From Thalia democratica (lineage: Eukaryota), in contig OZ241834.1 in NCBI GenBank assembly GCA_965202585.1, positions 37,200,001 through 37,264,000 of the forward strand: a stretch of DNA of 64,000 nucleotides, given 5' to 3'. Made by a program: the position numbers. Below, piece by piece: positions 3,001 to 6,000 of this stretch (position 1 is the first letter of the stretch; each line of letters begins with the position of its first letter).

Positions 3001-6000
3001 GAATGACATTAACTTAAAAAGATAAATACTACTGATAAGATGGATATTTAACTGATTTGGATGCTACATGGTACTATAGATAAAATTACATATGATTTAG
3101 GAGGTTAAAAAAAATCATAATTACTAAATAAGACCTAAAATTTTGAAATATTTTGATTTAAGTTACCTCTGACTGCGGATTCCAAATTTTCGAAACGCTT
3201 GTGAACCAACAACTCAAATCTGTGTCAAAAATCACAAGTTAAAAAAATATAATACTCAGAATCTGTTTTCATAAAGAGGTTTAAATTGGAATTAATTATG
3301 ATACTCCAAATTTGTTGTTTTTTCAGTTAATATATAAAAAACTAGAGTTTTAATTTTTTAAAAATTTAAAAATATTTTAGTTGTTACTGGCTAACATTTA
3401 ATTTAATCTTTTTTTGTTATCTTAATCTTTTTTAATTAATATAAAATTAAACATACGGAGATGCAGTGTCATTGGATGGGTTGTTGAAATATTCTTCTAC
3501 ATTTTCCACTGTTTTGAACTTGAAACCATCTTTTACCTGAAATAAATAAACATACAGTTGGTAGCCTTGCTTAACTAGAAATGAAATTGTATCTAAAAAC
3601 AATTCAAGTTTTAATATTTTTGGTACAACTTAACATTCAATTTAAAAAAATTAACAACTTAGTTCTTGATAGGACTTAAACTTTACCTCAAATAAATCAT
3701 TTTTCTGTAATTAACCAATTTTAGTTAAAATTTAACAGTTGGCTCCATGATTTTATGATAATAAACACAAAAAAAAATTTTTAATATTTATTTAAATATA
3801 TTTTTACCTTAAATACTGCGTAACCAGCTGCACTTTCTGACAATATTAACATCTTCTTTCTTCTTCCTTTACTTAAACTAAAACCTTAAAATTTATTTAC
3901 CAGTTGTAAAAGCACACCAAAAACTTTGCTAAATTCATACTAAGATGGTTAACACACGATAAATAACACAACTAATTATACACTATTTACACAAAAAATT
4001 AATCTAAACATTAAAATGTTACTATTAAATGTTCATTAAGTTGTATAGATCACCCAAGAAGGCATCAAGTGATATTATCCAAGTAAATCAGTTTTTCCAA
4101 GATTATTCCAGTGGAAAGTAGGATAGTTAGGTGTTAATTCATTGTGTGAAACTCGAGTTTTAAAGTCAGCCTGACCAATTGTCTATCAAGTTGAAATGAA
4201 GCTAATACTTTTTTGGTGTGGGGCCAAGCTGACTTTTTCAAATAGAACTAAACAGTTCTACTTCTTCCTAAAAGAGCATCCTTCAGTCAACCTCGCCTTT
4301 CCTCCGGTGGGCTGGCAGAGAACGGCAGAGCACCCAGAGCACACAACAACGGTCTGAGCGTGGCTGAAGACGGTGGTGATCTTGTAGCATCCGGGGCACT
4401 TGACATCCATGAAGTAGGAGTTTGGCGACTGAACCAGCCTCTTCTTCTTGTGTTTGCGCTGCTCCTCCTCGAAGGACGGGTTCAAGAGGTCGATCTTCAA
4501 TGGCATGGTTGGGTTTTGTTGATGAGAGTAAATGCAGAGTAGAGTGAAGTACTTAAAAATTTACTTAAATCTGTTGGAAAAAAATGTATCAAGTATAATA
4601 AAATTTTAGGTTTCAAGAAATTTAATTATAAAATTAAATCCTTTTTTTTTTATTTGTTTAACACTTGACTAGTTTTTTTAAAATACTTTTCAAATGGTAA
4701 ATAATCTTTATGATTATATTATTGAAGTGTTGCACCTCTTCAAACAAAAAGCTAGTTTACAGAGCAACATCAAGCCAGCATGAGTTTATACAAGTAAATT
4801 TACATTAAAAAATATGAGCCTAGATTTGAAAAGTACCATTAATCAAGCTCAAATACCAAAGTAAAATATTAACTAAAGAAGTTAAAAAGAAGTATATTTT
4901 TTAGGAGAAAAGAAGACCTTAAGTTATGAAAACTAGTTTGAGAGTTTAAAAATAACAAACTGACTAAAAGTCAGCAAGAGTTTTTCATAATTTTTAAACT
5001 AGCTTGAGTTATCCTGAGTACGTGGGAAATTTTAAATTTAAAAAACATGACATTTCATAAAAATTTAAGATTTTAAGTTCTATGTTATAAATTTTTTTGC
5101 TTCAGTATGAATAACTTCATATAACTATCAAACTTAATACTTTTTAAATTATATGCAGTAAAAGTTTTCACCATAGATTAAAGTTAGAATTTTATGGTTG
5201 AAAATTAACTTTGCATAATAACTATTAAAATATTATTTTCACATCATATCCAGACAGCTTCTACAGCTATGATAGCTAAAACACATATGTACAACATAGC
5301 TGTTACTGTATATATTACAGTTTAAGTTCAAATTTTTCAAGCAGTAAATTAGTCAAAAACAGAATACCAAAAATTACAGGCTTATTTAAGTTTGGCAGTC
5401 TTGAAAGTTGAAAATCTTTATAAAACCTTGGTACTTCAGTTTAGTCTTATCTAAAAAATTTTAGAATTGTATGTTTACCAAATTTCCATGACTATTGATT
5501 TAACTTTTTTTTACAAATATTAAGACTTAGTAGTTGACATTTAATGTAAAAACATGTTACAGAATGAAAAGCAAAATAAAGTAGTTTATGGTCAAATGAA
5601 AGTTTAACTAACAATAACTAAAACTGTTTTAAAAAATTTATATCAACCTTTTGCTTAGGTTATGTTTAAATACATATGAAAATAGCTAGTAACTGCCACC
5701 TTGAAATTTTGATACTTATATTTTATTAAATTAAAGACATATTTAATTATCAAAAACTCAATATAGCTAACCTGAATACTTACTATGATAAGAATAAAAG
5801 ACTTTTATGTACTATAACTTTTCAAGGATGCAATACAAAAAGTAGTGTGAGCATGAGTTTTTTAATTCATACAAAAAGGCTAAATATTTAATTAAGAGCC
5901 ATTTTGGTAAAAGTTATACCAGGGACAGAAAAAAATTATACAAAACAGCTGTATATTTAAGAAAAAAATATTATGTTAATTTTAAAATCTTTGTAATTAA

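What the first reader, a model, noticed from the sequence alone, without database searches (positions are those of the whole stretch)
3852..4549. RPS27-NOP58 junction looks like a spacer-less, trans-spliced operon coupling a ribosomal protein to a ribosome-biogenesis factor
Seen: the genes are on the same strand, 405 nt from stop to start, with no GC-rich promoter-like patch in between. The only canonical AATAAA downstream of RPS27 (3897-3892) lies 12 nt before a TTTTAG acceptor that is 25 nt upstream of the NOP58 ATG. RPS27 has a pyrimidine-rich TOP-like leader. Established: in ascidian (Ciona-type) operons the upstream poly(A) site and the downstream SL trans-splice acceptor are directly juxtaposed. 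Inference: a dicistronic pre-mRNA in which NOP58 is released by SL trans-splicing and co-regulated with RPS27. TMEM45, the orphan exon, RPS27 and NOP58 are all co-oriented, so a longer unit is possible.
Basis: partly seen in the sequence, partly recalled or inferred. Interest (0 to 1): 0.68.

Follow-up and report, generated by a model that had tools for sequence, protein, structure and literature searches.

The report
Possible RPS27–NOP58 operon, unproven
An intron-less ribosomal protein gene sits 405 bases in front of a ribosome-assembly gene in what is probably a salp genome, a layout that looks like the two-gene operons of sea squirts but cannot be confirmed from DNA alone.

Summary
The poly(A)-signal and acceptor words are no more than chance gives in this 24.5% GC window. 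AATAAA occurs 1.44 times per 405 nt on this strand, and 27 of 460 AATAAA sites have TTTTAG within 40 nt.

- The window is probably from a thaliacean tunicate.
- An intron-less gene ahead of a multi-exon gene is the commonest Ciona operon layout.
- The same 10-mer, TTTAAGTAAA, follows both the proposed NOP58 acceptor and a stronger acceptor upstream of RPS27. Only 2 of 18,279 control pairs show such a match.
- A 16-mer two mismatches from the Ciona spliced leader lies 10 nt after the RPS27 stop.

Evidence against:
- Spliced-leader trans-splicing is undocumented in salps in the library searched.
- Most Ciona operons lack AATAAA, and Ciona ribosomal protein genes are rarely operonic.
- RPS27 would need a 380-nt 3' UTR.
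- Composition changes near position 4050.

No transcript data could be reached. I rate an operon the single likeliest model at about 0.4. The proposed longer unit reaching TMEM45 is not supported.

The parts
4258..4506 (-). RPS27 (eS27) coding sequence in a single exon, 82 aa plus stop TAG
   Evidence: Read. Pfam Ribosomal_S27e E 4.5e-29. 77-91% identity to named eS27 proteins. GC 54%, GC3 77%.
4507..4549 (-). C/T-rich leader of RPS27 (TOP-like, not canonical)
   Evidence: 29 of 43 pyrimidines and 17 C. 34 of 127,914 windows are as extreme. Longest unbroken pyrimidine runs are 5 and 4 nt.
4571..4590 (-). Strong acceptor-like site catttttttccaacAG upstream of RPS27 (G of the AG at 4571)
   Evidence: Pyrimidine fraction 0.73 over 15 nt with C at -3. 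This equals the best of the 7 verified NOP58 intron acceptors. It is the only flagged AG between 4640 and the RPS27 ATG.
4560..4569 (-). Copy 1 of the 10-mer TTTAAGTAAA, starting 1 nt after the AG at 4572-4571
4233..4248 (-). 16-mer GTTCTATTTGAAAAAG, two mismatches from the Ciona spliced leader. It starts right after an AG, 10 nt past the RPS27 stop, and is followed by TCAGCTTGG.
   Evidence: It is the only hit with 2 mismatches or fewer in the window, against 0.46 expected. The leader sequence is as printed in PMC7986045.
4162..4236 (-). 15-bp stem hairpin built from AAAGTCAGC / GCTGACTTT, in the GC-richer first half of the gap
   Evidence: Fold of 4262..4130: -31.8 kcal/mol, z -3.3, 1 of 200 shuffles as good. 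GCTGACTTT has 4 copies against 0.39 expected.
4032..4037 (-). AATGAA, a variant poly(A) hexamer (a second copy lies at 4138-4143). It sits where the composition drops to 17-18% GC.
   Evidence: Its status as a usable variant signal is recalled knowledge and was not tested.
3892..3897 (-). The only canonical AATAAA in the gap
3878..3883 (-). TTTTAG, the proposed trans-splice acceptor (G of the AG at 3878)
   Evidence: Pyrimidine fraction 0.53 with T at -3, equal to the weakest of the 7 verified acceptors (range 0.53-0.73). AGs at 4183, 4004 and 3940 score higher. It is the only acceptor-like AG downstream of the last upstream ATG (3938).
3868..3877 (-). Copy 2 of the 10-mer TTTAAGTAAA, starting directly after the AG at 3879-3878
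3808..3852 (-). NOP58 exon 1 (MLILSESAAGYAVFK), with donor GTAAAA
   Evidence: tblastn of P0121: 100% identity. Boundaries.
285..3536 (-). NOP58 exons 2-8: about 3536-3457, 3219-3167, 2993-2866, 2597-2492, 1323-1210, 814-615 and 365-285. The gene runs off the left end of the window.
   Evidence: Exon-by-exon tblastn against P0121 gave 87-100% identity per HSP over the exon bodies, covering residues 1-270. Junctions. Pfam Nop domain on exon 7, E 2.3e-17.

Best explanation
The pair is most likely a two-gene, spliced-leader-resolved transcription unit of the ascidian (Ciona) type, in a thaliacean tunicate.

Proposed mechanism:
- Transcription starts upstream of RPS27 and runs through both genes.
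- RPS27 mRNA is cleaved and polyadenylated at or just before the AG at 3879-3878. The AATAAA lies 12 nt upstream of that AG.
- Alternatively, the same primary transcript receives a spliced leader at 3877, giving a monocistronic NOP58 mRNA with a 25-nt genomic leader.

I further infer that the unit arose when an intron-less RPS27 copy was inserted into the original short leader of NOP58. That leader began at the strong acceptor ...ccaacAG (4571). The insertion left TTTAAGTAAA on both sides.

Shown: gene identities, positions, the signal words, the 10-mer coincidence and the probable taxon.
Inferred: every transcript-level step, the existence of a spliced leader in this species, and the insertion history.
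For: Taxon:
- Window GC is 24.5%. PMC13746493 (passages) gives Thalia democratica 25.3% genomic GC in a 790.7-Mb genome, with CDS GC almost 17 points higher.
- Holding the NOP58 clade (P0121, P0122, P0182, P0184) together with the ascidian Clavelina gives a tree 15.1 log-likelihood units better than the free quick search, p-AU 0.795.
- P0182 and P0184 score best against Clavelina among the named proteins compared (494 and 478 bits, against 431-473 for fish, brachiopod and coral).

Architecture:
- In Ciona, single-exon genes are the 5'-most gene in 790 (60%) of 1,310 operons, against 15% single-exon genes outside operons (PMC2760879, passages).
- Poly(A) is added at the G of the downstream acceptor AG (PMC1488885, passages).
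- Here the G at 3878 lies 14 nt past the end of AATAAA.

Spacing:
- The gap is 405 nt in a window where other neighbouring genes are kilobases apart.

10-mer coincidence:
- Among 18,279 pairs of acceptor-like AGs lying 300-1500 nt apart, 2 share a 10-mer in register. One is this pair. The other lies inside a tandem-repeat ORF.

Spliced-leader-like 16-mer:
- It lies in the gap on the sense strand. Only 0.46 such hits are expected per 128,000 strand positions.

Transcript sizes in near relatives:
- Full-length NOP58 contigs are 1,838-1,948 nt for a 1,683-nt CDS.
- A C-terminal fragment of 277 aa sits on a 1,012-nt contig.
- So the 5' UTR is at most about 90 nt (265 nt at the outside), and the mature mRNA is monocistronic.
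Against: - No transcript, cap or spliced-leader data could be examined.
- No paper in the library reports spliced-leader trans-splicing in thaliaceans.
- The taxon is inferred. The free tree put the clade outside the other animals. P0121 itself scores higher against fish (422 bits) than against Clavelina (404).
- 16 of 18 Ciona operons lack AATAAA within 40 nt of the junction. 71 of 76 Ciona ribosomal protein genes are not trans-spliced, and only 3 of 79 lie in candidate operons (PMC1488885).
- RPS27 would carry a 380-nt 3' UTR, which is long for a ribosomal protein mRNA (recalled general knowledge).
- GC falls from 30-42% (4050-4259) to 17-18% (3960-4049). That looks like a transcript end near 4030-4050, next to AATGAA at 4037-4032.
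- The AG at 3878 is only as good as the weakest verified acceptor.
- The signal words are at chance frequency.
- The insertion idea lacks a poly(A) remnant and terminal repeats.
Confidence: 0.4

Rival explanations
1. Two separate transcription units. RPS27 ends about 220 nt after its stop, near AATGAA at 4037-4032. NOP58 has its own promoter in the very AT-rich stretch 3960-4050. Its short outron is removed by spliced-leader trans-splicing at 3877.
For: - Composition breaks at about 4050.
- Variant hexamers lie at 4143-4138 and 4037-4032.
- In Ciona about half of all genes are trans-spliced and most of those are monocistronic (PMC1488885; PMC11155486).
- Functional outrons need only more than about 50 nt and A+U richness (PMC3074122, passages). 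The last 180 nt before the AG are 75.6% A+T.
- The short 5' UTR in relatives fits this model equally well.
Against: - The median Ciona outron is 458 bp (PMC11155486) and the one mapped outron is 459-463 nt. That is longer than the room available here.
- A promoter plus a 3' UTR squeezed into 380 nt is unusual in so gene-poor a window.
- It does not explain the 10-mer shared with the acceptor upstream of RPS27.
- No promoter element could be recognised.
Confidence: 0.25
2. Two ordinary genes with no trans-splicing at all. The AATAAA/TAAATAAA at 3899-3892 acts as a TATA-like element or is meaningless. NOP58 transcripts start 10-40 nt before the ATG.
For: - All the signal words occur at chance frequency in this AT-rich DNA.
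- Spliced-leader trans-splicing is undocumented for thaliaceans in the library, and the taxon is only inferred.
- There is no ATG between 3936 and 3853, so any start there gives a clean leader.
- Relatives have a short 5' UTR.
Against: - Both ascidians and appendicularians trans-splice (PMC1488885). Thaliaceans are commonly placed among the ascidians (recalled, not from a call), so loss would be needed.
- The 10-mer sits in register behind two acceptor-like AGs, which happened in 2 of 18,279 control pairs. This model leaves that unexplained unless it is a pure insertion scar.
- If it is an insertion scar, the original NOP58 promoter would be displaced by about 700 nt.
Confidence: 0.2
3. The RPS27 copy is a processed, little-used or dead retrocopy that landed next to NOP58. 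The juxtaposition has no functional meaning.
For: - The gene is intron-less, while the neighbouring NOP58 has at least 7 introns in 270 codons.
- The exact protein is not in the 15-billion-sequence collection.
- 10-bp direct repeats flank a 682-nt piece.
Against: - The 82-codon frame is intact, and the best-scoring listed hits (about 85% and above) are mostly vertebrate eS27.
- GC3 is 77%, as in the most biased NOP58 exons.
- The C/T-rich leader is extreme for this genome (34 of 127,914 windows).
- There is no poly(A) remnant.
- The missing exact match is uninformative. Clusters are shown by 90% representatives, and the sampled relatives are a different species.
Confidence: 0.07

Closest known systems
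Ciona intestinalis operons without intercistronic DNA (Satou et al. 2006, PMC1488885; Satou et al. 2008, PMC2760879; passages read)
   Same: Same-strand pair with a single-exon gene first and a multi-exon gene second. An acceptor AG is placed so that upstream poly(A) addition and downstream leader addition could share one nucleotide. The first gene could be untrans-spliced with a TOP-like start, as in 14 of 20 upstream genes in Ciona.
   Different: A canonical AATAAA is present, while 16 of 18 Ciona operons lack it. The first gene is a ribosomal protein gene, and only 3 of 79 such genes lie in Ciona candidate operons. The genome is far larger and more AT-rich. No transcript ends are known, so abutment itself is untested.
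Oikopleura dioica operons (as summarised in PMC1488885, PMC7986045 and PMC6883708; the primary paper PMC507004 is not held)
   Same: A tunicate in which ribosomal protein genes are often operonic (at least 14) and trans-spliced (103 of 129). The leader supplies a TOP-like 5' end, linking the translation machinery to trans-splicing.
   Different: Oikopleura has 23-30-nt intercistronic spacers, a compact genome and a 40-nt leader. That leader has no match in the window at up to 3 mismatches.
Caenorhabditis SL1-type operons lacking intercistronic sequence (mentioned in PMC1488885)
   Same: The poly(A) site and the trans-splice site coincide, so each transcript yields either the upstream or the downstream mRNA.
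   Different: This is a nematode-specific minor class. The window shows no nematode affinity.
Processed retrogene inserted beside or into a host gene
   Same: An intron-less copy of a normally intron-bearing housekeeping gene, with short direct repeats on both sides of the piece.
   Different: No poly(A) tail remnant. The frame is intact and codon-biased. The 3' end of the piece is an acceptor-like AG rather than an A run.

Membership tests
Ciona-type SL-resolved operon | The organism performs spliced-leader trans-splicing | not testable with these tools
   No RNA data could be reached. The taxon is inferred to be a tunicate. No paper holds both 'spliced leader' and 'thaliacea'. No SL RNA family was found by Rfam. 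One Ciona-leader-like 16-mer is present but without a GT directly after it.
Ciona-type SL-resolved operon | Adjacent genes lie on the same strand | tested here: met
   RPS27 at 4506..4258 and NOP58 from 3852 downward are both on the minus strand, with no other gene between them.
Ciona-type SL-resolved operon | The upstream mRNA 3' end and the downstream trans-splice site abut (operationally, less than 100 bp between gene models including UTRs) | not testable with these tools
   Only the CDS-to-CDS gap (405 nt) is known. Abutment needs 3'-end and 5'-end reads.
Ciona-type SL-resolved operon | An unpaired acceptor lies upstream of the downstream ATG | tested here: inconclusive
   The AG at 3879-3878 has a pyrimidine fraction of 0.53, equal to the weakest of the 7 verified acceptors. 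Three other AGs in the gap score higher. A GTAAAT 22 nt upstream is too close to act as a partner donor.
Ciona-type SL-resolved operon | The downstream mRNA carries the leader, and a dicistronic precursor is detectable | not testable with these tools
   The contigs behind P0121 and its cluster belong to a closed collection. Only their lengths are known.
Ciona-type SL-resolved operon | Typical but not defining: a single-exon 5'-most gene | tested here: met
   RPS27 is one uninterrupted 249-nt frame. The Ciona figure is 60% of operons.
Ciona-type SL-resolved operon | Typical but not defining: no canonical AATAAA within 40 nt of the junction | tested here: not met
   AATAAA ends 14 nt before the G of the AG. 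16 of 18 Ciona operons lack it.
TOP mRNA | Cap-site C followed by an unbroken run of 4-14 pyrimidines (definition as quoted in PMC6883708) | tested here: inconclusive
   The start site is unknown. CTCTC at 4528-4524 would just qualify, while CTTC at 4549 would not.
Processed retrogene | Intron-less, with a poly(A) remnant and target-site duplications | tested here: inconclusive
   Intron-less: met. Poly(A) remnant: not found. A 10-bp exact direct repeat flanks 4559..3878.

The most novel reading that the evidence does not exclude
An operon caught at its birth. An intron-less RPS27 copy was inserted into the 26-nt leader of a trans-spliced NOP58 gene, duplicating the target TTTAAGTAAA.

The inserted piece ends in AATAAA-N12-AG. 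That is the 3' end expected of an mRNA that was itself the upstream member of an abutting operon. It therefore brought a ready-made poly(A)/trans-splice junction with it.

The piece also carries a fossil spliced-leader-like 16-mer 10 nt after the RPS27 stop.

If this is general, it would explain why most first genes of ascidian operons are single-exon. It would also show that operon junctions can spread by copy-and-insert.
Probability: 0.15. Interest if true: 0.7.

Novelty: new member of a known kind. Interest (0 to 1): 0.4.

Why it matters
If confirmed, this would be a first concrete operon candidate in thaliaceans. I found no report of spliced-leader trans-splicing or operons for that tunicate class in the library searched. 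It would also link a ribosomal protein to a box C/D snoRNP core protein in one transcription unit.

The more interesting point is mechanistic. The 10-bp repeat behind two acceptors suggests a testable route by which intron-less genes become the first cistron of tunicate operons. PMC2760879 describes that pattern as unexplained.

If it is not confirmed, the locus is simply a tight gene pair in AT-rich DNA.

Tried and rejected
- **Rfam.** At gathering thresholds over the whole window it found only tRNA-Cys. A permissive scan of 3300-5300 gave four hits, all at E about 5. So there is no known snoRNA or SL RNA here.
- **Bacterial-type promoter and terminator scan.** It does not apply to a eukaryote and was not used.
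- **Oikopleura 40-nt leader.** 0 matches.
- **RPS27 leader as a repeated, leader-like element.** It matched only itself.
- **SL-like 25-mer.** It matched only itself.
- **Extended homology around the GCTGACTTT copies.** None was found.
- **Chaetognath origin.** I considered it, but the genome paper's passages gave nothing that tied it to this window.
- **Hydra, rotifer, copepod or nematode origin.** Set aside, because no named protein exceeds 56% identity to the NOP58 proxy.
- **Protein Atlas.** It confirmed the family but gave no usable taxon.
- **Exact look-up of RPS27.** Absent from the collection, which is uninformative.
- **N-terminally extended cluster members.** I looked for members that might have translated a leader. 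All 12 full-length members are exactly 560 or 563 aa, and the 4 fragments are internal or C-terminal.
- **Literature search for an RPS27-NOP58 operon.** 7 papers held 3 of the 4 terms and none was relevant.
- **Papers not held.** PMC312621, PMC2860165 and PMC507004.
- **Classical retrocopy hallmarks (poly(A), TIRs).** Not found.
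Full report
**What is at the coordinates**

On the minus strand an uninterrupted 249-nt frame (4506..4258) encodes an 82-aa eS27/RPS27. It matches Pfam Ribosomal_S27e at E 4.5e-29 and is 77-91% identical to the best-scoring listed hits. The NOP58 start codon follows 405 nt downstream, at 3852-3850.

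I searched one exon alone (612-815). That search returned two unnamed transcript-derived proteins, P0121 (560 aa) and P0122 (563 aa). I then compared P0121 with the window exon by exon. Eight exons cover its residues 1-270 at 87-100% identity per HSP over the exon bodies, with the same N-terminus. All seven introns are GT-AG.

The window has no N and is 24.5% GC. I do not take it for human.

**Is it more than chance?**

For the signal words, no.
- AATAAA occurs 227 times on this strand, or 1.44 per 405 nt.
- 27 of 460 AATAAA sites (both strands) are followed within 40 nt by TTTTAG, and 51 of 460 by YYYYAG.
- The AG at 3878 has a pyrimidine fraction of 0.53, equal to the weakest of the seven verified NOP58 acceptors (0.53-0.73). 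AGs at 4183, 4004 and 3940 score higher.
- 'No GC-rich patch' says nothing here. The flank upstream of RPS27 is itself only 13-25% GC.

The RPS27 leader is exceptional. It has 29 of 43 pyrimidines and 17 C, and only 34 of 127,914 windows are as extreme. Its unbroken pyrimidine runs reach only 4-5 nt.

**Which organism?**

NOP58 is at most 56% identical to any named protein.
- A quick maximum-likelihood tree put the clade P0121, P0122, P0182 and P0184 on the animal side as a long branch outside the other animals.
- The tree that holds this clade together with the ascidian Clavelina is 15.1 log-likelihood units better than the free search found, p-AU 0.795.
- P0182 and P0184 score best against Clavelina. 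P0121 itself scores slightly better against fish (422 bits) than against Clavelina (404).
- PMC13746493 (passages) reports Thalia democratica at 25.3% genomic GC and 790.7 Mb, with CDS GC almost 17 points higher. This matches the window, where exons are 35-54% GC.

I conclude that the window is probably from a thaliacean tunicate, at roughly 0.7. This is an inference, not an identification.

**What is known**

From passages of PMC1488885:
- Ciona operons lack intercistronic DNA, and poly(A) is added at the G of the acceptor AG.
- 16 of 18 operons lack AATAAA within 40 nt of the junction.
- 71 of 76 ribosomal protein genes are not trans-spliced, and 3 of 79 lie in candidate operons.
- Operon members are not tightly co-expressed.

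From passages of PMC2760879:
- There are 1,310 operons holding 2,909 genes.
- Single-exon genes are the 5'-most gene in 790 (60%) of operons, against 15% single-exon genes outside operons. The authors call this unexplained.

From passages of other papers:
- PMC11155486: with a zero-distance definition, 1,404 of 13,801 genes are operonic, and the median outron is 458 bp.
- PMC3074122: the one mapped outron is 459-463 nt, and outrons need more than about 50 nt and A+U richness.

No paper in the library holds both 'spliced leader' and 'thaliacea'. None describes an RPS27-NOP58 operon.

**New observations**

1. The strongest acceptor-like site in the region lies upstream of RPS27 (catttttttccaacAG, G at 4571). 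The 10-mer TTTAAGTAAA starts 1 nt after this AG and directly after the AG at 3878. The 10-mer is not enriched overall (4 copies, 4.85 expected). In a control, 2 of 18,279 pairs of acceptor-like AGs lying 300-1500 nt apart share a 10-mer in register. One is this pair, and the other lies in a tandem-repeat ORF. So the two AGs are linked, either by function or by history.
2. GTTCTATTTGAAAAAG (4248-4233) differs at two positions from the Ciona leader printed in PMC7986045. It is the only such hit in the window (0.46 expected). It lies on the sense strand 10 nt after the RPS27 stop. No GT follows it directly, so it is not an intact SL RNA gene.
3. GCTGACTTT occurs 4 times against 0.39 expected, and 0 of 100 shuffles reached 4. 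Three copies flank RPS27 and form hairpins.
4. The first 200 nt after the stop are 35% GC. The region 3960-4049 drops to 17-18% GC.

**Transcript sizes in near relatives**

All 12 full-length cluster members are exactly 560 or 563 aa, on contigs of 1,838-1,948 nt. A 277-aa C-terminal fragment sits on a 1,012-nt contig. The 3' UTR is therefore at most about 178 nt. The 5' UTR is at most about 90 nt, or 265 nt at the very outside. The mature NOP58 mRNA is monocistronic with a short leader. This fits both trans-splicing and a nearby promoter, and it excludes a stable dicistronic mRNA as the main form.

**Weighing the models**

For an operon:
- a probable tunicate;
- a single-exon first gene;
- a very tight pair in a gene-poor window;
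- AATAAA placed so that cleavage falls at the AG;
- the 10-mer link.

If the 10-mer is an insertion scar, the original NOP58 promoter lies upstream of RPS27. That makes co-transcription the simplest way for NOP58 to stay expressed.

Against an operon:
- no RNA evidence;
- trans-splicing unproven in salps;
- AATAAA is untypical of Ciona junctions;
- ribosomal protein genes are rarely operonic in Ciona;
- RPS27 would need a 380-nt 3' UTR;
- the composition break near 4050;
- a mediocre acceptor.

| Model | Confidence |
|---|---|
| Operon | about 0.4 |
| Own promoter, with trans-splicing | about 0.25 |
| Own promoter, without trans-splicing | about 0.2 |
| Inert retrocopy | about 0.07 |

The orphan ORF ends 6.7 kb upstream of the RPS27 ATG, and the DUF716/TMEM45 exons lie further still. 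Ciona-type operons are abutting.

**What stayed unchecked**

- The contigs behind the unnamed NOP58 proteins, which belong to a closed collection.
- Any eukaryotic genome for synteny. The one open contig collection holds only bacteria and archaea and was not used.
- Supplementary operon tables of the Ciona papers, which were closed.
- Three primary papers that are not held.
- Three unnamed RPS27 hits fetched (P0024, P0011, P0020) proved to be vertebrate-type, possibly human. They were set aside unused.

**Verdict**

At best this is a new member of a known kind of system.

Noticed in passing
window 4233-4248 (-): A 16-mer two mismatches from the Ciona spliced leader, 10 nt after the RPS27 stop. 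It follows an AG directly and is followed by TCAGCTTGG (compare the Ciona Sm motif AGCUUUGG). It is the only hit with 2 mismatches or fewer in the window, against 0.46 expected.
   Followed up: partly
window 4560-4569 and 3868-3877 (-): An identical 10-mer, TTTAAGTAAA, sits in register behind two acceptor-like AGs, one upstream of RPS27 and one upstream of NOP58. Only 2 of 18,279 control pairs do this. It may be a target-site duplication or an acceptor-linked motif.
   Followed up: partly
window 4959-4975, 4222-4236, 4162-4176: GCTGACTTT occurs 4 times in the window against 0.39 expected. Three copies flank RPS27 and form hairpins. No homology extends beyond the 9-10-mer, and the function is unknown.
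   Followed up: partly
window 285-3852 (-), NOP58 exons: Third-position GC climbs along the gene from 0.27 in exon 1 to 0.84 in exon 7, inside a 24.5% GC genome.
   Followed up: no
window 37239-37313 (+), 37889-38032 (+) and 41783-41911 (-): A tRNA-Cys (GCA) gene. Nearby, two similar peptide-coding stretches lie on opposite strands about 3.8 kb apart, which suggests an inverted repeat pair of a mobile or duplicated element.
   Followed up: no
window 52476-53816 (+) and 55093-55251 (+): A 447-codon open frame of acidic tandem repeats (EPEKVNP-like). Its Pfam hit to the phage T4 gp5 repeat is almost certainly compositional. A transmembrane exon downstream shows weak KCT2 similarity, E 0.029.
   Followed up: no
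window 11258-12461 (-): A 1.2-kb block of 39% GC containing two GCCATCTTGGAA copies. Beside it lies an orphan ORF starting MSLKPLKK at 11482, which has no Pfam family.
   Followed up: no
database hits P0024, P0011, P0020: These unnamed metagenome-derived proteins carry vertebrate-type RPS27/RPS27L sequences behind spurious N-terminal extensions. They may be human contamination of the source data, and I did not use them.
   Followed up: no
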